A DNA stretch of 64,000 bases, from assembly GCA_016193315.1 (NCBI GenBank), contig JACPSJ010000001.1, positions 663,478 to 727,477 of the forward strand, written 5' to 3'. Each line of letters starts with the position of its first letter. The first letter of the stretch is position 1. Of the stretch, positions 9,584 through 63,482 are shown in pieces. This DNA comes from Candidatus Kerfeldbacteria bacterium (GTDB taxonomy: Bacteria; Patescibacteriota; Patescibacteriia; SBBC01; CAIJZX01). A model generated the notes under the pieces. It was not told where the DNA came from and made no database searches. It saw only the letters and a program-made list of their open reading frames with translations. The position numbers were made by a program, and so were the translations under genes.

Positions 9584-9847
9584 TTATCGAGCTGAAGTTT
9601 TAGAGACAGGAATCAGTCGCTTTTTTGCGAAGGCAAAACCTGAACCAGATTTCAAGTATTTCTCAAATGCCAGAGCATCTTTCTTTTCCAGGAAAGCACA
9701 GTACCAGACCAATCTGAACGGAACTTTTGCGGAGGAATATTTTTGACCCTTACTGTTATGCTTTGCTAGCTGCTTCTTTAGATCGCTACTGAATCCTTTA
9801 TAGAAACTATGATCTTTCTGACTCTGAATGATGTAGACGTAATACAT
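9584..9847 (-). CDS. Small GIY-YIG nuclease-domain protein (UPF0213/YhbQ-like)
   Basis: YYVYIIQSQKDHSFYKGFSSDLKKQLAKHN matches the GIY-(x10)-YIG motif. Low-GC. Start at the second Met (MYYVYII); the ORF also allows 9886. Confidence 0.65.
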   Translation of the reverse strand: MYYVYIIQSQKDHSFYKGFSSDLKKQLAKHNSKGQKYSSAKVPFRLVWYCAFLEKKDALAFEKYLKSGSGFAFAKKRLIPVSKTSAR

Positions 9848-9949
9848 GTCTTGGCTGCACTCCTTCGCTAAAGCTTCGGAGTACACTGCTCAAATTAAGA
9901 GTCTTTGTAGCTGTGCTTGCACTGCGAAGCTTCGATGGAAGCGAAGCAG

Positions 9950-10030
9950 TGGTCGGGGTGGCGGGGATCGAACCCACGACCTCACGGACCCGCCCCGAAT
10001 AAAGCGAGCCGTAATTGATTCCTCTCCCCG
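9950..10030 (-). other. Orphan tRNA 3'-half fragment (variable loop + T-arm + acceptor 3' strand + encoded CCA) with no matching 5' half
   Basis: RC reads ...CCGTGAGGTC GTGGG TTCGATC CCCGC CACCCCG A CCA. T-stem/loop and acceptor are tRNA-Pro-like but differ from the adjacent intact tRNA-Pro. Confidence 0.6.
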
Positions 10031-10033
10031 CAG

Positions 10034-10106
10034 TCGGGGTACCGAGACTCGAACTCGGGACCTCACGCACCCGAAGCGTGCGCGCTACCAACTGCGCTAT
10101 ACCCCG
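10034..10106 (-). tRNA. tRNA-Pro (anticodon CGG)
   Basis: RC = CGGGGTA TA GCGC AGTTGGTA GCGC G CACGC TTCGGGT GCGTG AGGTC CCGAG TTCGAGT CTCGG TACCCCG A. All four stems are canonical. CCA is not encoded. Confidence 0.85.
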
Positions 10107-10107
10107 A

Positions 10108-10260
10108 CTGCGGGGAGAAATAATGTCTCGCTTTTACGGGGCAAGAACCGTGCGCTTGCCGCGTTTTATGCGGCGCTACCAACTGCCTGCCCCGTCATCC
10201 CGCGCGAGCGGGATTTTACGGGGCGCTACACCTCGACTGGGCGCCGGACGCGCTCCGTCA
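10108..10260 (-). other. Degenerate tRNA-derived debris (three decayed copies of a tRNA-Pro-like D-arm / 5' region)
   Basis: RC contains GGCAGTTGGTAGCGCC and GGTGTAGCGCCCCGTAAAA next to the CAGTTGGTAGCGCG D-arm of the intact tRNA. GCCCCGTAAAA occurs twice. Confidence 0.45.
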
Positions 10261-32946: not shown

Positions 32947-33023
32947 TGTAAACCTCCCTAAAAAGAGACCCTTGATCCGGTGAAGGAGCAGGGGTCAGGG
33001 TTGACGCCGACAGGGTTGTCGGA

Positions 33024-33209
33024 TCACGCATCCAGCATCGGATTGGTACGCGCTTCGCGCCACTGCTCCTTGGTGAGCTTGACCTTGCCGCCGAAATCGT
33101 CGGCGATGGTCACCTCGTCGGAGTCGTGGTTGATCTCCACCGTCGGGCAGCAGCCCTGAACACCGCAGAGGGTGTGACGAGTGATGTTCGGAACCTTGTC
33201 CTGAGCCAT
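33024..33209 (-). CDS. 61-aa Cys-motif peptide (LCGVQGCCP), candidate precursor/substrate of the adjacent rSAM-SPASM enzyme
   Basis: Strong SD GGGAGGA 8 nt upstream of the ATG. Sits 78 nt upstream of the rSAM gene on the same strand. Confidence 0.5.
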   Translation of the reverse strand: MAQDKVPNITRHTLCGVQGCCPTVEINHDSDEVTIADDFGGKVKLTKEQWREARTNPMLDA

Positions 33210-33390
33210 TGTAGGGATCCTCCCTATTCGGGTGTGAAGGTGCTCCTAGAGCGATTTGCTCTAATTGGACGCATCTTAGCAATCGCCTCTCTTTTGTCAA
33301 GCGCCGTCGCGACGGCGCATTCTGGTTCTAACCTAACTTCGCCCTCTTAATGGAGGGGTAATGAATATTAATCGAAAAGTGTGGCAGGGG

Positions 33391-33411
33391 CACTAGGATT
33401 CGTCCCTGGGC
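33391..33411 (-). repeat. 21-bp direct repeat identical to the 3' end of tRNA-Trp (CGAATCCTAGTGCCCCTGCCA), 130 bp downstream of the gene
   Basis: tggcaggggcactaggattcg occurs at 33391 and again as the 3' end of tRNA-Trp at 33542. Confidence 0.7.
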
Positions 33412-33541
33412 AGCGGCGACTTGCCACTGACAACTCGCCGGACGCTTGAGCTTCGCCTTAAGCTCGCTCTCGCTCCTGCCCTTCGAATCCTCCCGTAGAG
33501 GTTGAATAATTTGTTGGGTTGCTTTGCGAAGTGGTTCTTTT

Positions 33542-33615
33542 TGGCAGGGGCACTAGGATTCGAACCTAGAATAGAGGTTTTGGAGACCTCCGTGATACCG
33601 TTTCACCATGCCCCC
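33542..33615 (-). tRNA. tRNA-Trp (anticodon CCA), CCA encoded
   Basis: RC = GGGGGCA TG GTGA AACGGTA TCAC G GAGGT CTCCAAA ACCTC TATT CTAGG TTCGAAT CCTAG TGCCCCT G CCA. Confidence 0.85.
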
Positions 33616-33642
33616 ACAACGGGCATATTGTACCGATTCCGG

Positions 33643-34086
33643 TTATTTTGTCGAGTCAGATGACTGCGTCCGGACCCAATCCTGGGCCTCCTTCAGACTC
33701 TTGCAGAAACGGACCTTGGGTCGTGCATCCCGGGTGATCATGAACGTTTGGGTGATAAACTTCTGCCAGGAAGTAAAATCGAGCATCGCCACGCGTCGCG
33801 TCTTCGGATCTTTAATCATCTGGGTAAACACCATGCGCATCGCCAGCGGCGGATTGTAATGGGCCGGTAACCGTTTCAAACTAACAATAGCGTCCCACTG
33901 GCGCGACGGATCGGCGCGTTTCAACTGTTCATAAAGATCGCGCGCCCAGTGCGCTTCACCTACCGTATCACGATGCTCTTCGACGCGTGGCCCTAACGTT
34001 AACTCCAGCACCTCGTCCTGATTGATCCGCCACGACCCGCCGGTCGGTGTATATTCTTGAGCTCGCAGTTCGGCCGGGATACCCAT
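33643..34086 (-). CDS. Hypothetical protein (147 aa)
   Basis: ORF immediately downstream of rpmG. No firm motif. Confidence 0.4.
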   Translation of the reverse strand: MGIPAELRAQEYTPTGGSWRINQDEVLELTLGPRVEEHRDTVGEAHWARDLYEQLKRADPSRQWDAIVSLKRLPAHYNPPLAMRMVFTQMIKDPKTRRVAMLDFTSWQKFITQTFMITRDARPKVRFCKSLKEAQDWVRTQSSDSTK

Positions 34087-34090
34087 AACG

Positions 34091-34246
34091 TTATTTAACC
34101 TCTTTGTGCAGGGTGTGTTTCTTATCCCACCGACAATACTTCTTGAGTTCGATCTTGTTCTTGAGTTTCTTTTTGTTCCGCGTGCTGTGGTAGTTGATGT
34201 GCTTGCAAATCGTGCACTGGAGTTTGATGAGGTTGTCCTGCGGCAT
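34091..34246 (-). CDS. rpmG: 50S ribosomal protein L33
   Basis: Translation MPQDNLIKLQCTICKHINYHSTRNKKKLKNKIELKKYCRWDKKHTLHKEVK. Not in the ORF track (below 60 aa). Confidence 0.85.
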   Translation of the reverse strand: MPQDNLIKLQCTICKHINYHSTRNKKKLKNKIELKKYCRWDKKHTLHKEVK

Positions 34247-34271
34247 ACAGTTTAAGTTAATGACTTTATCT

Positions 34272-34380
34272 TGGAGCCAGGACGATGCGAACCGCCGACC
34301 TGCTGTATTTCCCGCGCCAGCCTGGAGCCAGTGGTCGGATTTGAACCGACGACCTTCGCTTTATCCCGCCCCACAAGCCC
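34272..34380 (-). other. Two tandem orphan tRNA 3'-half fragments (T-arm + acceptor 3' strand + CCA), the distal one degenerate
   Basis: RC 34323-34380 = GGGCTTGTGGGGCGGG ATAAAGCGA AGGTC GTCGG TTCAAAT CCGAC CACTGGC T CCA. 34272-34320 is a decayed copy ending TGGCTCCA. Confidence 0.6.
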
Positions 34381-34455
34381 TGGAGCCCACGGTCAGATTC
34401 GAACTGACGACCGGCTGTTTACAAAACAGCTGCTCTGCCCCTGAGCTACGTGGGC
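34381..34455 (-). tRNA. tRNA-Thr (anticodon UGU), CCA encoded
   Basis: RC = GCCCACG TA GCTC AGGGGCA GAGC A GCTGT TTTGTAA ACAGC CGGTC GTCAG TTCGAAT CTGAC CGTGGGC T CCA. Confidence 0.85.
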
Positions 34456-34537
34456 TTGTGGGGCGGGACTCTTGACCCCGTTTCATGGTGCCTGGTCGGG
34501 GTGATACGAGTCATTCAATCTAGTATATACTATCACC

Positions 34538-36469
34538 ATGGGTTTCCCCGGTTTATCCCGGCGCGATATCTGGATCGGCGCCACGCTGATTGTCATCCCG
34601 GTGCTGTTCGCGTTGCCAACGATCACGAAAAACCTCCCGCTTTCGCCAGGAGATTATATCAACCAGTATTATATCTGGCAATCCTATTTCGTCAAGTCGA
34701 TCCAGAGTTTCAACATTCCGTTTTGGAACCCATGGGTCTTTGGCGGGGCTCCGTTTTTTGCCAACCCGCAAACCGCCGCGCTGTCTCCCTTTTCGTGGAT
34801 GCTACTCCCCTTTCATCCAAATCCTGTCCTGCCGGGGTTCATCCTCGACCTGCAGTTTTGTTTTATCGTCGGAGTCGGGACGCTCGGCGTCTACCTCTGG
34901 TTACGCCGATGGTTTTCCGAATTGCCTTCAACCCTCGGCGCGGGCCTATGGTTCTTCAGCCCGGTTGGACTCTGGTTACTTCGTGACTCGACGACCGCCA
35001 TGGCAACTATCGCCTGGTGGCCGTTTCTCCTGTACTTTACCGACCGACTAATCGATCGCCGGTCTCGGCGCGGGGTCGCCGCTCTGGCCGGGACGATTGC
35101 GCTCAGCTGGTTCGCCGGTCATCCGCCGACGTTTGTCGCCAGTTTGCTCGGTCTGGGCCTGTACGGCATTGCTCGGATCGGCAAGTCGTGGCGAACATGG
35201 AGGGCTATGGTGGTGGCCACGTGTTCCGGTCTCGGGCTGGCGGCCGTGCAACTCTTCCCAGCGTTGGACTTCGTCGCGCAAACCACGCAGGTCGCGGTGA
35301 CAGCTGGCAATGCCCTGCCAACCATAACGCCGTTCGGCCTGTCGGCGTCCGTTGTGACGGCCGATGCATATCGATTCGTGCCGGTGACGATCGGAGTAGT
35401 CCCACTCCTATTTGTCATCATCGCCTGGCGACACCGCGTCCACTCCGTCCTGGGCGCGTGGATGAAATTTTGTGTCCTCGGGACGATCGCATTGGCCGCG
35501 ATCATCGCCGCTCGCGAGTGGCTGGCAACGGTGCCATTCATCCATAACCTCGTGCGTTATCCGTGGCGGTACGTCTTCCTCCCATTAACCGCCGTCCTGC
35601 CGATGGCGGTGGCCGGTTTCGCCGGATGGAACAACACTGTCCGTTCACGCCGGCGTACAACCCAGAAGCTGATCGTCACTCTGGGGCTATTCGGCCTGGC
35701 AGTTTCCGTCACCAACACGAATTGGATTTCGACGGCCTCAATTGCTGGCAGTACCATCATCCTTCTCTTGACCACGTTCCGATTTGATATGGAACGCTCT
35801 TCTTCGCGCTTGCTCATCGCCGTGGTGGCGCTCGCGTCCGTCGCCCTGACCTGGAGCCGGGCGTTACCGGATAGTTCAGGACGGACGTGGACGGAGATTT
35901 CCCGACAATTCGCTGTCCTGCGCCAAGCTCCTGACACCGGCGACCGAATCGTGACCGGCGGAGACAAACTCCGAGGGAACGGTTCGATGCTCTATTCCCG
36001 CCCGAACGTCGGCGGCTACGATTCTCTCCTCCTCCGGTCCTACCGCCGGCTGGAAAGGAATGGCGGGTCGGCCGGCCTAAACGGTCGATGGCGGTTGAAC
36101 GGAGTCCGTTGGGAGGAACAGCTAGCCCGGAGGCGAGCATGGGTTGAAGGTCAACGGTCAGACGTCCAGGTTTACCGAGCATCCACTGGTCGGTTGACAG
36201 TACGAGTCGAAACCACCTGGCCCGGTCGATTGGTACTCAACCAACCGTATGAAAAGAACTGGTCAGCTTCAGCTGGTAGCGATCTGGATCTTCCGACCGA
36301 ACCAAACCGTCAAGGATACCTGACCGTGCAAGTGCCGGCGGGAAGAACTCAAATCAACCTCCGATATCTCCCGGGAGGACTATTTACCGGCTTCCTGGTT
36401 ACGACCCTGACAGTAGCCTGGCTTCTCTGGTGGAACCGGCCAACGGTGGTAAAACGGCCGGACAGTTAA
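34538..36469 (+). CDS. Large polytopic membrane protein, YfhO/DUF2142-like putative glycosyltransferase
   Basis: 643 aa with ~12 or more TM helices in the N-terminal two-thirds and a C-terminal soluble domain. Family call is tentative. Confidence 0.45.
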   Translation: MGFPGLSRRDIWIGATLIVIPVLFALPTITKNLPLSPGDYINQYYIWQSYFVKSIQSFNIPFWNPWVFGGAPFFANPQTAALSPFSWMLLPFHPNPVLPGFILDLQFCFIVGVGTLGVYLWLRRWFSELPSTLGAGLWFFSPVGLWLLRDSTTAMATIAWWPFLLYFTDRLIDRRSRRGVAALAGTIALSWFAGHPPTFVASLLGLGLYGIARIGKSWRTWRAMVVATCSGLGLAAVQLFPALDFVAQTTQVAVTAGNALPTITPFGLSASVVTADAYRFVPVTIGVVPLLFVIIAWRHRVHSVLGAWMKFCVLGTIALAAIIAAREWLATVPFIHNLVRYPWRYVFLPLTAVLPMAVAGFAGWNNTVRSRRRTTQKLIVTLGLFGLAVSVTNTNWISTASIAGSTIILLLTTFRFDMERSSSRLLIAVVALASVALTWSRALPDSSGRTWTEISRQFAVLRQAPDTGDRIVTGGDKLRGNGSMLYSRPNVGGYDSLLLRSYRRLERNGGSAGLNGRWRLNGVRWEEQLARRRAWVEGQRSDVQVYRASTGRLTVRVETTWPGRLVLNQPYEKNWSASAGSDLDLPTEPNRQGYLTVQVPAGRTQINLRYLPGGLFTGFLVTTLTVAWLLWWNRPTVVKRPDS

Positions 36470-36479
36470 CTCTCCTCTC

Positions 36480-36620
36480 GCCACCATGCCTGGAGCCGAT
36501 GTCGCCGCCATTCGACGGGGTGACCCAGCCCTTACCATGGCGTTGCCCTGCCTGCCCGAACCTGAGCCCATGCGCGGAATTGAACCGCGAACCTACTCCT
36601 TACCCCGCCTGCCACGCGCC
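36480..36620 (-). other. Degenerate 3'-half copies of a tRNA-Thr(GGU)-like gene (tRNA debris)
   Basis: TGAGCCCATGCGCGGAATTGAACCGCGAACCTACTCCTTACC and TGGAGCCGATGTCGCCGCC...CTTACCATGG resemble the 3' half of the intact tRNA at 36621-36696. Confidence 0.55.
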
Positions 36621-36696
36621 TGGAGCCGATGCGCGGATTTGAACCGCGGACCTACTCCTTACCATGGAGTTGCTCTACCAACTGAGCTACATCGGC
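36621..36696 (-). tRNA. tRNA-Thr (anticodon GGU), CCA encoded
   Basis: RC = GCCGATG TA GCTC AGTTGGTA GAGC A ACTCC ATGGTAA GGAGT AGGTC CGCGG TTCAAAT CCGCG CATCGGC T CCA. Confidence 0.85.
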
Positions 36697-36720
36697 GCGA
36701 GGCGACTGGCGGGCAGGCGT

Positions 36721-36760
36721 GGAGTTGCTCTACCAGCTGAGCTACATGGGCCCGGGTTCA
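36721..36760 (-). other. Orphan tRNA 5'-half (acceptor + D-arm + 5' anticodon stem) of a tRNA-Thr-like gene
   Basis: RC = GCCCATG TA GCTC AGCTGGTA GAGC A ACTCC ACGC. Its acceptor GCCCATG matches the CATGGGC of the 3' fragment at ~36560-36610. Confidence 0.55.
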
Positions 36761-36836
36761 GGCCGGTGGGTCTGCCAGCTGCTGACGCTAGTATCCGGCT
36801 TTGCCGGGCGTGTCCGGGAATTACGCGGGCACGAAA

Positions 36837-54083: not shown

Positions 54084-54980
54084 GTGCCACGCCGATTGGT
54101 TATCATCCTCGGTCCGACCGCCTCGGGAAAATCAAAACTAGGCCTCCAGCTCGCCAAGAAGTTTCAGGGGGTCGTCATTTCCGCTGACTCACGGCAGGTC
54201 TATCGTGGCTTGAACATCGGCACCGGAAAAATCAACCAGCCAGGCATGCGTGGTGTACCGCACTATCTGCTTGATGTCGCTTCACCGCGCCGCCAGTACT
54301 CGGTGGCCCGGTACGCCCGCGATGTCCGTCGGGTGTTGAACTCTATTGACCCAAACCGACCGGTGTTTCTTGTCGGCGGTTCGCCGTTTTACATCAAGGC
54401 CGTCACCGAGCCGCACAGCTTTTCACCGGTACCGCCGGATGCGGCACTGCGGCGGCGGTTGGCGGGTCTGACGACCGCGCGATTAATCGCGCGGCTACAA
54501 AAACTCGATCCGGAACGTGCCCGGCATATCGACCCCGCCAACCGCCGCCGCCTCATTCGGGCGGTTGAAATCGCCGGCGAGCGAAGGCAGTATTATTCAT
54601 TGCAGTTTCCGCCGATGCAGGTATTGAAGATCGGACTGGCTGTGCCGCGCCGGATGCTGTTCGGCCGCATCGATCGCCAGGTCAAGCGACGTCTGCGTGG
54701 CGGCATGATTAATGAAGTTCAACGGCTTCACCGCCGAGGCGTGCCGTGGTCACGTTTTCGAGCGTTTGGTCTTGAATATCGTCTGGTGGTTGACTATCTC
54801 CGCGGGAGATTGAGAAGAGAACGGTTGGGGCCAAAAATGAAATCCGCCACCCACGATTTTGCCCGGCGGCAAATGACGTGGTGGAAACGTGATTCAGGAA
54901 TTCACTGGGTTCGTCGACTGGACAAAGCGGAACGCCTGGTATCCAGATTCCTCAGGACCAGCGCCGGCGGTAGGACCTGA
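54084..54980 (+). CDS. miaA: tRNA dimethylallyltransferase
   Basis: P-loop ILGPTASGKS and SADSRQVYRGLNIGTGK. Confidence 0.9.
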   Translation: MPRRLVIILGPTASGKSKLGLQLAKKFQGVVISADSRQVYRGLNIGTGKINQPGMRGVPHYLLDVASPRRQYSVARYARDVRRVLNSIDPNRPVFLVGGSPFYIKAVTEPHSFSPVPPDAALRRRLAGLTTARLIARLQKLDPERARHIDPANRRRLIRAVEIAGERRQYYSLQFPPMQVLKIGLAVPRRMLFGRIDRQVKRRLRGGMINEVQRLHRRGVPWSRFRAFGLEYRLVVDYLRGRLRRERLGPKMKSATHDFARRQMTWWKRDSGIHWVRRLDKAERLVSRFLRTSAGGRT

Positions 54981-63296: not shown

Positions 63297-63482
63297 CCTT
63301 GTGCTCCCCATCCTCGCTCCCGCTCGCCCCGCGAGCGGTTTTCTTAATCCTGTCCAATCCGACGCGCCGCGATCATGTTTGAGTGAAGCCCCGCCCATTG
63401 GCGGGGCGAGCGAGTTATCGCGGCGCTTGATTCTTTTCGGTTCCTTTTCTGATCAAGCAGAAAAGGAACGGCACCGAAAATC

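What the first reader, a model, noticed from the sequence alone, without database searches (positions are those of the whole stretch)
34272..34510. tRNA-Thr(UGU) inside a perfect 16-bp inverted repeat, followed by two orphan tRNA 3' halves
CCCGCCCCACAAGCCC precedes the tRNA (sharing its first four nt) and GGGCTTGTGGGGCGGG follows its CCA. The downstream arm is simultaneously the first 16 nt of an orphan tRNA 3'-half (T-arm + CACTGGC acceptor strand + CCA) that has no 5' partner. A further decayed copy follows. The tRNA looks like an insert sitting in the loop of a long hairpin formed by older tRNA-derived sequence.
Basis: seen in the sequence. Interest (0 to 1): 0.6.

Follow-up and report, generated by a model that had tools for sequence, protein, structure and literature searches.

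The report
Nested relics of replaced tRNA genes
In this tiny-genome (CPR) bacterium the working threonine tRNA gene is a newcomer, clamped by a GC-rich inverted repeat and joined to the older tRNA gene inside its anticodon; the older gene's 3' half and a still older one remain downstream, and other tRNA genes of this and related genomes show the same layering.

Summary
tRNA-Thr(UGU) lies at 34455..34381 on the minus strand, inside a perfect 17-nt inverted repeat. Two tRNA 3' halves follow, and the second is decayed. Independent assemblies from five sequencing runs reproduce the region exactly.

It is not a one-off. In this 64-kb window, tRNA-Pro and tRNA-Thr(GGU) are nested in the same way: outer 5' half, GC-rich arm, complete inner tRNA, complementary arm, outer 3' half. 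Cutting the inserts out in silico restores tRNAs that ARAGORN calls. Other CPR genomes (L004, L021, L014, L017, L003, L026, L092) show the same architecture. Breakpoints cluster in the anticodon loop, and the Thr trailers share a motif (GGCAGGCGGG).

Orphan 1 is 39/41 identical to the functional tRNA-Thr(UGU) of a relative, so it is the lineage's displaced native gene. The closest relatives have a plain tRNA-Thr 22-31 nt before rpmG.

Best reading: serial replacement of resident tRNA genes by incoming cassettes clamped by an inverted repeat. The insertion mechanism is unresolved. Small GIY-YIG nuclease genes sit next to several such tRNAs, which suggests break-induced recombination. I found no description of this in the searchable literature.

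The parts
34452..34468 (-). Upstream arm of the inverted repeat (TCCCGCCCCACAA + GCCC); the last 4 nt are tRNA nt 1-4
   Evidence: the repeat finder I1, 17 nt, 100% complementary; coordinates; present in Logan contigs L163-L165
34381..34455 (-). Intact, incoming tRNA-Thr(UGU), acceptor stem GCCCACG/CGTGGGC, CCA encoded
   Evidence: ARAGORN; Rfam tRNA 67.6 bits. Its 3' half scores at most 24 of a possible 41 (match +1, mismatch -1) against any Thr tRNA of the relatives, whereas orphan 1 scores 37
34364..34380 (-). Downstream arm / trailer (GGGC + TTGTGGGGCGGGA), starting right after CCA. GGGCT-CCA-GGGCT (34388..34376) reads like an 8-nt duplication that introduced CCA into a formerly continuous acceptor-stem extension
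   Evidence: it aligns with Thr trailers of the window Thr(GGU) units, L004 and L021 (A2); the energies of the two pairing registers are about equal
34323..34363 (-). Orphan 1: 3' half (anticodon-loop nt 36 to CCA) of the displaced native tRNA-Thr(UGU)
   Evidence: nhmmer tRNA HMM positions 36-73, E=3.7e-5; 39/41 identical to the functional L007 tRNA-Thr(UGU) 3' half; 77% identical to the resident tRNA over 43 nt
34311..34322 (-). Older trailer (GGCTGGCGCGGG) between orphan 1 and orphan 2, same G-rich type ending in GGG next to the break
34272..34310 (-). Orphan 2: oldest, decayed tRNA-Thr 3' half (AAATACAGC..TGGCTCCA)
   Evidence: alignment A4; T-stem 3/5, loop TTCGCAT, 3-nt deletion in the acceptor strand
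34091..34246 (-). rpmG (ribosomal protein L33). It is the conserved downstream neighbour of tRNA-Thr(UGU) in CPR genomes, so the orphans lie between the tRNA and rpmG
   Evidence: PF00471 on the called gene; synteny Thr(GGU)-Tyr-Thr(UGU)-rpmG-Trp in relatives

Best explanation
The region stacks three generations of the tRNA-Thr(UGU) gene in a Candidatus Kerfeldbacteria (CPR/Patescibacteria) genome.

Shown:
- The only working gene is a divergent, incoming copy bracketed by a GC-rich inverted repeat.
- It abuts the 3' half of the lineage's native tRNA-Thr(UGU), broken between anticodon nt 35 and 36.
- That half abuts an older trailer and an older, decayed 3' half.
- At other loci of this genome and of other CPR genomes the full form survives: outer 5' half, arm, complete inner tRNA, complementary arm, outer 3' half, up to three levels deep. 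Each level has its own complementary acceptor strands.

Inferred:
- A complete replacement tRNA with its leader and trailer is inserted into, or recombined into, the anticodon-loop region of the resident gene. This kills the resident gene and supplies the same function, so the event is tolerated and can repeat.
- At this locus the 5' halves were lost in the rearrangement that also removed tRNA-Tyr and placed a YfhO-like gene upstream.
- The inverted repeat works at the RNA level as a clamp that prolongs the acceptor stem. The inner pre-tRNA can then fold on its own and be cut out of a transcript that must read on into rpmG.
- Cassettes spread between lineages by recombination in which the conserved tRNA halves act as homology arms. 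Breaks made by the small GIY-YIG nucleases encoded next to many CPR tRNA genes may trigger this.
For: The architecture recurs in the window.
- tRNA-Pro (10194..9950) and tRNA-Thr(GGU) (36799..36491) are nested.
- Removing the inserts in silico restores tRNA-Pro(CGG). It restores tRNA-Thr(GGU) once 2 missing nt are added, and restores L004 tRNA-Trp by an exact join (ARAGORN).

Acceptor strands are complementary level by level.
- Window Thr(GGU): A GCCCATG/CATGGGC around B GCCGATG/CATCGGC.
- L004 Trp: GGGGCTA/TGGCCCC, TGGGAGA/TCTCCCG, TGGGGTC/GACCCCG.

Distribution.
- An HMM scan of 161 loci and 297 tRNAs found clear internal orphan fragments (E <= 0.01, next to a cognate tRNA) only in the window and its CPR relatives. 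Their 3' fragments start at HMM positions 35-36. Two further internal hits, in L099 and L157, were not examined.
- Orphan 1 is 39/41 identical to L007's functional tRNA, while the resident tRNA is an outlier.
- The closest relatives, L005 and L007, have the plain arrangement.

Arms and trailers.
- Thr trailers from three genomes share CCA-GGC-nnn-GGCAGGCGGG-(n)TAA (A2).
- Arms that extend the acceptor stem form a distinct class: 6 of 294 tRNAs have at least 12 of 14 contiguous pairs, against a background maximum of 10.
- The clamp adds about 26 kcal/mol and is compatible with an intact cloverleaf.

GIY-YIG genes (PF01541) lie next to such tRNAs.
- Window 9886..9584, L003, L026 and L092. Homologues follow tRNA genes in L176-L195 and L197.
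- Phage T4 SegB is a GIY-YIG homing endonuclease that recognises tRNA genes and drives inheritance of the tRNA region (PMC2330249).
Against: - No 5' halves and no nuclease or recombinase gene are present at the Thr(UGU) locus itself.
- The insertion step was never observed. Breakpoints vary (D-loop, position 26, 32-37), so a single precise enzyme is not implied.
- SegB cuts after CCA, not in the anticodon. The approximately 80-aa CPR GIY-YIG proteins show only the catalytic domain in Pfam, so sequence-specific cleavage is unproven.
- One of three GIY-YIG homologue groups examined has no tRNA nearby (L166-L175).
- L004 Thr(UGU) has the trailer but no upstream arm.
- L095 and L123 have clamps without recognisable relics. 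Clamp and nesting may therefore be separable phenomena.
- CCCGCC/GGCGGG hairpins also occur elsewhere in GC-rich DNA, so part of the similarity between arms may be compositional.
Confidence: 0.7

Rival explanations
1. These are classical attachment-site scars. Tyrosine-integrase elements integrated into the tRNA gene at the anticodon loop and duplicated its 3' part, and the elements were later deleted.
For: Partial tRNA copies are a well-known product of integration of mobile elements (10.1101/2022.07.05.498093). From my own knowledge, the anticodon loop is a known integrase crossover site. The window's tRNA-Trp has an exact 21-nt repeat of its 3' end 160 nt downstream.
Against: Only 16-17 nt separate the tRNA from orphan 1, and no integrase was found among the neighbouring ORFs tested. 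The intact tRNA is not a host/element hybrid, because both of its acceptor strands differ from the orphan's lineage. A single crossover cannot produce upstream 5' orphans nested with matching acceptor strands. Three independent near-total deletions of kb-scale elements in one window are implausible.
Confidence: 0.1
2. It is a functional RNA device. The leader-trailer hairpin and the tRNA-like 3' halves are processing or regulatory elements of the tRNA-rpmG transcript (RNase III, RNase P or RNase Z punctuation, or control of the 5' UTR of L33) and are kept by selection.
For: The region folds much better than shuffles (z = -4.6). Helices that extend the acceptor stem recur even without relics (L095, L123), and some contain G-U pairs (L021, L003). 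Orphan 1 keeps a perfect T-arm. The orphans lie in what must be the rpmG leader.
Against: The closest relatives lack all of it and have 22-31-nt spacers. The orphans show graded decay. Their sequence matches a relative's functional tRNA rather than a conserved regulatory motif. No Rfam family other than tRNA reaches its threshold.
Confidence: 0.08
3. The pattern arose by local tandem duplication: replication slippage copied the tRNA's own 3' half plus trailer.
For: Spacings of 58 and 50 nt look like a short tandem array. In L014 the orphan is identical to the resident 3' half.
Against: Orphan 1 is only 77% identical to the resident tRNA but 95% identical to a relative's tRNA. At other loci the 5' and 3' orphans have co-varying acceptor strands that differ from the inner gene.
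Confidence: 0.05
4. These are split or intron-containing tRNAs. The outer halves are still functional, are brought together by the GC-rich helix as in Nanoarchaeum split tRNAs, and carry another tRNA in the intron.
For: The layout (5' half, GC-rich arm, complementary arm, 3' half, with the break in the anticodon loop) mimics archaeal split tRNAs (own knowledge; reviews listed). Window Thr(GGU) unit A and L004 Trp unit C have well-preserved halves.
Against: Orphans 1 and 2 have no 5' half. Unit A lacks 2 anticodon-loop nt. The outermost copies are decayed. From my own knowledge, no bulge-helix-bulge geometry is evident and bacteria lack the archaeal splicing endonuclease; neither point was tested here.
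Confidence: 0.03

Closest known systems
Partial tRNA gene copies left by integrative elements (att duplications)
   Same: An intact tRNA gene is accompanied by a displaced partial copy. The break often lies in the anticodon loop. Function is preserved because the incoming DNA brings replacement tRNA sequence (10.1101/2022.07.05.498093).
   Different: Here the incoming piece is a complete tRNA of about 75 nt plus 12-20-nt complementary arms, not a kb-scale element with an integrase. The copies are nested, with 5' and 3' relics, rather than lying at the two ends of an island. The relic and the working gene are different alleles.
Phage T4 SegB: free-standing GIY-YIG homing endonuclease in a tRNA gene cluster
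   Same: A GIY-YIG nuclease gene sits among tRNA genes, recognises tRNA-gene sequence (GGTTCRANTCC...CCAR) and causes replacement of the recipient's tRNA region by the donor's (PMC2330249). In CPR, GIY-YIG genes with a conserved leader begin exactly after a tRNA's CCA (A3).
   Different: SegB homing gives clean gene conversion, not nested relics. It cuts after CCA, whereas the breakpoints here are in the anticodon loop. No GIY-YIG gene lies at the Thr(UGU) locus. The activity of the CPR proteins is untested.
Disrupted tRNA genes of Archaea (split, intron-containing and permuted tRNAs; the Caldiarchaeum tRNA-Thr(GGU) disruption model)
   Same: tRNA genes are interrupted in or near the anticodon loop, with GC-rich complementary sequences next to the halves. 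A mobile element has been proposed as the cause (PMC3293823).
   Different: Those genes are still expressed through the splicing endonuclease. Here the interrupted copies decay and the function sits in the inserted complete tRNA. The organism is a bacterium.
Mobile endonuclease ORFs that carry a replacement 3' end of the gene they invade, and GC-rich hairpin mini-elements of fungal mitochondria (own knowledge: Allomyces atp6/ORF360, double-hairpin elements, yeast GC clusters)
   Same: The insertion disrupts a gene but supplies a substitute copy and leaves the original end as a downstream pseudogene. L026 and L092 show exactly this for tRNA-Tyr with a GIY-YIG ORF. Small GC-rich hairpins are inserted in the relics (L003, L017, L092, window Pro).
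   Different: The targets here are tRNA genes of a bacterium. In most cases the insert is a whole tRNA without any ORF. This comparison is recalled from memory and was not tested.

Membership tests
tRNA (Rfam RF00005) | Full cloverleaf scoring above the gathering threshold | tested here: met
   The inner gene scores 67.6 bits against a threshold of 29. The orphans are not reported by the global model; a tRNA HMM finds them only as partial matches (positions 36-73).
Integrase att-site duplication | Integrase or recombinase gene and kb-scale element between the intact tRNA and the partial copy | tested here: not met
   16-17 nt lie between the tRNA and orphan 1. The Pfam scan of the neighbouring ORFs shows L33, a YfhO-like protein, TPR, EF-Ts and radical SAM, and no recombinase.
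Integrase att-site duplication | The partial copy is (near-)identical to the corresponding part of the intact tRNA | tested here: not met
   77% identity over 43 nt. The orphan is closer to a relative's tRNA, at 39/41.
Free-standing GIY-YIG homing endonuclease element at tRNA genes (SegB-like) | GIY-YIG ORF adjacent to the affected tRNA gene | tested here: not met
   None at the Thr(UGU) locus. Met at the window's tRNA-Pro locus (9886..9584, PF01541, 51 bits) and in L003, L026 and L092.
Free-standing GIY-YIG homing endonuclease element at tRNA genes (SegB-like) | Site-specific cleavage of the tRNA gene and preferential inheritance | not testable with these tools
   Needs biochemistry or crosses. 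Only the precedent was read (PMC2330249).
MITE / TIR transposon | Terminal inverted repeats at the exact ends of the insert | tested here: met
   The perfect 17-nt arms bound the insert. In the nested loci the arms abut the outer halves directly.
MITE / TIR transposon | Multiple copies with the same ends in one genome, and target-site duplications | tested here: not met
   The arm sequence is unique in the window and the motif GGCRGGCGGG is not enriched (26 found, 20 expected). Joins are exact or carry small losses. A 4-nt duplication (TCCA) was seen only in L003. Only 64 kb of the genome could be examined.
Group I intron in a tRNA anticodon loop | Intron ribozyme core between the tRNA halves | tested here: not met
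   No intron family appears in the Rfam scans. The inserts are a tRNA plus arms of about 100-130 nt.
Archaeal-type split or intron-containing tRNA | Both halves present and intact, with a precise anticodon loop after removal of the insert | tested here: not met
   No 5' half for orphans 1 and 2. Window Thr(GGU) unit A lacks 2 nt. Met only formally for L004 Trp unit C and the window's outer Pro.
Archaeal-type split or intron-containing tRNA | Splicing endonuclease and bulge-helix-bulge motif | not tested
   No search for EndA homologues was made. Inspection by eye of the junctions found no bulge-helix-bulge geometry.

The most novel reading that the evidence does not exclude
CPR bacteria harbour a previously undescribed kind of selfish element: a cassette of about 100-130 bp that consists only of a complete tRNA gene clamped by GC-rich terminal inverted repeats. 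It homes into the anticodon loop of the cognate resident tRNA gene, using the conserved tRNA halves as homology arms and possibly trans-acting GIY-YIG nucleases. It pays for the disruption by supplying the same tRNA, and it repeatedly overwrites tRNA genes across lineages, leaving Russian-doll relics.
Probability: 0.35. Interest if true: 0.8.

Novelty: new variant of a known kind. Interest (0 to 1): 0.62.

Why it matters
tRNA genes are usually treated as stable, vertically inherited landmarks and as passive targets for islands. This pattern suggests that in CPR bacteria the tRNA genes themselves are repeatedly replaced by foreign alleles, by a mechanism that leaves a readable stratigraphy.

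If confirmed, it would have four consequences:
- It would give a dated record of horizontal tRNA replacement.
- It would explain assembly breaks and spurious or partial tRNA calls in CPR genomes.
- It would provide a bacterial counterpart to the disrupted tRNA genes of Archaea, bearing on how split tRNAs and tRNA introns arise.
- It would point to the abundant approximately 80-aa GIY-YIG proteins of CPR genomes as possible tRNA-gene-directed nucleases.

The leader-trailer clamp would also be a testable pre-tRNA processing signal.

Tried and rejected
- Assembly artefact: rejected. Logan contigs from five runs match the window exactly, and the same architecture occurs in unrelated genome assemblies.
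- Dispersed repeat family: the arm sequence and the GGCRGGCGGG motif are not enriched in the window outside tRNA loci. Short CCCGCC..GGCGGG hairpins are mildly enriched (3 found, 0.32 expected) but also occur in GC-rich non-CPR loci.
- The other long inverted repeat (54449-54551) lies in Arg-codon repeats of an ORF I read as miaA.
- Closer relatives: the metagenome scan with L33 gave at best 76% identity and no new clear orphan next to a cognate tRNA. The two extra internal hits it produced (L099, L157) were not examined.
- Viral vectors: a scan for CCAGGC-N3-5-GGCAGGCGGG gave 108 hits, about the number expected by chance by my own rough estimate. None of the 80 loci returned has the match at a tRNA end.
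- Infernal does not report the orphans as truncated tRNA hits; an HMM does.
- The trailer as the C-terminus of a lost ORF ending in the TAA of the anticodon loop: the reading frame is not conserved between L004 and the window, so rejected by inspection.
- A decayed upstream partner of the older trailer at about 34489-34499: only about 9 of 12 positions match, and only with an indel, so not claimed.
- Literature: six searches found no description of nested tRNA genes in bacteria or CPR.
- Sigma-70-like promoter hits lie about 200 nt upstream, inside the divergent gene, and are uninformative.

Full report
**1. The observation**

All features are on the minus strand. ARAGORN and Rfam place tRNA-Thr(UGU) at 34455..34381. 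The repeat finder reports a perfect 17-nt inverted repeat, with arms at 34468..34452 (TCCCGCCCCACAAGCCC) and 34380..34364 (GGGCTTGTGGGGCGGGA). The upstream arm contains tRNA nt 1-4. The downstream arm begins right after the encoded CCA.

The rest tiles without gaps:
- Orphan 1, 34363..34323: TAAAGCGA-AGGTC-GTCGG-TTCAAAT-CCGAC-CACTGGC-T-CCA.
- A 12-nt G-rich trailer, 34322..34311.
- Orphan 2, 34310..34272, with a degraded T-arm and a shortened acceptor strand.
- rpmG, starting 25 nt further on, at 34246.

A tRNA HMM hits orphan 1 at model positions 36-73 (E=3.7e-5). No matching 5' half exists in the window.

Independent Logan assemblies from five sequencing runs match the window exactly over 33011-34443 and 34414-36678. 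The repeat and the orphans are therefore not assembly artefacts.

Perfect inverted repeats of this size and spacing are very rare in the window. There are three: two flank tRNAs, and the third is a codon-repeat coincidence in an ORF I read as miaA from its translation.

**2. Who it is and what relatives look like**

The window's GIY-YIG protein is 100% identical to a protein of a Candidatus Kerfeldbacteria MAG with an 857-kb contig. The closest L33 proteins are from CPR/Patescibacteria.

CPR genomes share the order tRNA-Thr(GGU), tRNA-Tyr, tRNA-Thr(UGU), rpmG, tRNA-Trp. In the closest loci, L005 and L007, tRNA-Thr(UGU) ends 22-31 nt before rpmG, with no inverted repeat and no orphans.

Their tRNA has the acceptor stem GCCAGTG/CACTGGC or GCCAGCG/CGCTGGC. 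Orphan 1 is 39/41 identical to the 3' half of the functional L007 tRNA. The window's working tRNA (GCCCACG/CGTGGGC) is an outlier. Orphan 1 is therefore the 3' half of the lineage's native gene, and the intact gene is a newcomer.

The window also lacks tRNA-Tyr. It carries a divergently oriented YfhO-like gene between the two Thr genes.

**3. The same architecture at other tRNA genes**

*tRNA-Thr(GGU), 36799..36491*. It reads, in order:
- a decayed 5' half C;
- an arm;
- 5' half A (GCCCATG...ACTCCA);
- an arm;
- the complete tRNA B (GCCGATG...CATCGGCTCCA);
- the arm GGCGCGTGGCAGGCGGG;
- 3' half A (GTAAGGAGT...CATGGGCTCAG);
- an arm;
- 3' half C.

*tRNA-Pro, 10194..9950*. The inner tRNA-Pro(CGG) has no CCA. 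Its acceptor stem continues into a perfect 12-bp leader/trailer helix (19 nt counting the stem). That unit sits in the loop of a second hairpin, which interrupts an outer tRNA-Pro between nt 34 and 35.

*In-silico excision.* Removing the inserts restores tRNAs that ARAGORN calls:
- tRNA-Pro(CGG);
- tRNA-Thr(GGU), after adding 2 lost nt;
- the outer tRNA-Trp of locus L004, by an exact join.

*tRNA-Trp.* It has an exact 21-nt repeat of its 3' end 160 nt downstream.

**4. The same in other CPR genomes**

| Locus | What is there |
|---|---|
| L004 tRNA-Trp | Three-level nest; each level has its own complementary acceptor strands |
| L004 tRNA-Thr(UGU) | Followed by GGCGATCGGCAGGCGGG and a 3' half starting at TAA |
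| L021 tRNA-Thr(GGU) | Nested, with a 19-position helix (2 mismatches, 2 G-U pairs) continuing the acceptor stem |
| L014, L017, L003 | tRNA-Trp relics |
| L026 | tRNA-Tyr 3' half displaced by a GIY-YIG ORF |
| L092 | tRNA-Tyr 5' half displaced by a GIY-YIG ORF |

An HMM scan of 161 loci and 297 tRNAs found clear internal orphan fragments (E <= 0.01, next to a cognate tRNA) only in the window and its CPR relatives. The 3' fragments begin at model positions 35-36. Two further internal hits, in L099 and L157, were not examined.

Thr trailers from three genomes align as CCA-GGC-nnn-GGCAGGCGGG-(n)TAA (A2).

Leader/trailer helices that prolong the acceptor stem form a distinct class. Six of 294 tRNAs have at least 12 of 14 contiguous pairs, against a background maximum of 10. 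Two of them, L095 and L123, have no recognisable relics.

**5. Mechanism: what is shown and what is inferred**

Shown: nesting, graded decay outward, breakpoints in the anticodon-loop region, foreign inner alleles with native-like relics, and absence from the nearest relatives.

Together these argue for repeated insertional replacement of resident tRNA genes by complete tRNA cassettes that bring their own complementary leader and trailer.

*Inferred: the clamp as an RNA feature.* The clamp adds about 26 kcal/mol. It can coexist with an intact cloverleaf if TCCAGGGC bulges out: -54.3 kcal/mol for that form, -55.4 for the 17-bp register, and -28.4 for the cloverleaf alone. It would let the inner pre-tRNA fold independently of similar relic sequences, and be excised from a transcript that continues into rpmG.

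The sequence GGGCT-CCA-GGGCT suggests that CCA was added to a formerly continuous stem extension by an 8-nt duplication. This is an inference from the sequence alone.

*Inferred: spread.* The conserved tRNA halves on either side of a cassette, or the inner 5' half together with the relic 3' half, are natural homology arms for recombination into another lineage's tRNA gene. This would explain the constant junction for each tRNA type: the arm followed by TAA for Thr, and ...GGC followed by AAAACC for Trp.

*Inferred: trigger.* Small GIY-YIG nuclease genes (PF01541) lie next to such tRNAs: window 9886..9584, L003, L026 and L092. A conserved leader of about 130 nt begins exactly after a tRNA's CCA in the window and in L176, L186 and L197 (A3). 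Phage T4 SegB shows that GIY-YIG enzymes can recognise tRNA genes and drive replacement of tRNA regions (PMC2330249).

*Against over-reading the nuclease link:*
- There is no nuclease gene at the Thr(UGU) locus.
- SegB cuts after CCA, not in the anticodon.
- One of the three GIY-YIG homologue groups examined has no tRNA nearby.
- The CPR proteins show only the catalytic domain in Pfam.

**6. Rivals**

- *Integrase att scars.* These fail on spacing (16 nt), on the absence of an integrase, on the non-hybrid nature of the intact tRNA, and on the nested 5' relics.
- *A conserved regulatory or processing device.* This fails on its absence from the nearest relatives and on the graded decay. The clamp itself may still be functional.
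- *Slippage duplication.* This fails because orphan 1 resembles a relative's tRNA more than the resident one.
- *A split tRNA or a tRNA-in-intron reading.* This fails here on the missing 5' halves, the missing loop nucleotides and the decay.

**7. Known or new**

The known sources of tRNA gene fragments are kb-scale integrative elements and CRISPR spacers. Archaeal disrupted tRNAs are expressed genes. SegB-type homing gives clean conversion.

Six literature searches found no description of complete tRNA genes nested inside relics of their predecessors, clamped by inverted repeats, in bacteria. I therefore rate this a new variant of a known kind: tRNA-gene-targeted insertion that restores the target. 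The insertion mechanism remains open.

Noticed in passing
window 36491-36799 (minus strand): tRNA-Thr(GGU) is a three-level nest: a decayed 5' half C, 5' half A, the complete tRNA B, 3' half A and 3' half C, separated by partly complementary GC-rich arms. The acceptor strands of A (GCCCATG/CATGGGC) differ from those of B (GCCGATG/CATCGGC).
   Followed up: yes
window 9950-10194 (minus strand): tRNA-Pro(CGG) has no CCA, and its acceptor stem continues into a perfect 12-bp helix. It sits in the loop of a second hairpin that splits an older tRNA-Pro at nt 34/35. The older copy also carries a 19-nt hairpin at position 26, and it ends in CCA.
   Followed up: yes
window 9584-9886 (minus strand) and 9850-9950; L176, L186, L197: A GIY-YIG nuclease gene (PF01541) has a conserved, hairpin-rich leader of about 130 nt that starts exactly after a tRNA's CCA (CCA|CTGCTTCGC...GCTTCGCAGTGCAAGCA...GAAGCAGTGTACTCCGAAGCTT). 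The family has 983 homologues at E <= 1e-8, and the source names given for them are mostly CPR lineages.
   Followed up: partly
window 33382-33402 and 33542-33562 (minus strand): There is an exact 21-nt repeat of the tRNA-Trp 3' end (T-loop to CCA) 160 nt downstream of the gene. The intervening DNA resembles the GIY-YIG leader only weakly (A3), so it may be a decayed element.
   Followed up: partly
window 33643-34086 and 34538-36469: Local synteny is broken relative to other CPR genomes. tRNA-Tyr is missing, a YfhO-like membrane protein gene lies divergently between the two Thr genes, and a 147-aa ORF with no Pfam match lies between rpmG and tRNA-Trp.
   Followed up: partly
L004 5238-5510; L021 4580-4765; L014 5240-5325; L017 250-350; L003 5440-5610: Other CPR genomes carry nested or orphaned tRNA-Trp and tRNA-Thr genes with similar GC-rich arms. 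In L003 and L017 the relic tRNA-Trp has only a GC-rich palindrome (24-31 nt) in its anticodon loop. L003 shows a 4-nt duplication (TCCA).
   Followed up: partly
L026 1996-2470; L092 1929-2330: GIY-YIG ORFs are inserted at the anticodon loop of tRNA-Tyr, with duplication of the 3' half in L026 and of the 5' half in L092. The L092 relic also has a CCCCGCC..GGCGGGG hairpin in its D-loop.
   Followed up: partly
L095 1655-1770; L123 4145-4260: tRNA-Trp lies between rpmG and the next gene and is flanked by leader/trailer helices of 14-17 bp that continue the acceptor stem, with no recognisable relics. In L095 the CCA is part of the helix.
   Followed up: partly
window 34414-34443: All Logan contigs end or start inside the tRNA and overlap by exactly 30 nt there. 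This suggests a branch in the assembly graph, possibly a second allele in the community that shares this 30-mer.
   Followed up: no
window 54449-54551: An 18-nt perfect inverted repeat with 67 nt between the arms lies inside a 298-aa ORF that I read as miaA from its translation, without a family search. It arises from CGG/CCG Arg-codon runs and is unrelated to the tRNA clamps.
   Followed up: yes
window 63321-63412: Intergenic GC-rich hairpins (for example CCCCGCCCATTGGCGGGG) are of the same composition as the hairpins found in tRNA relics.
   Followed up: no
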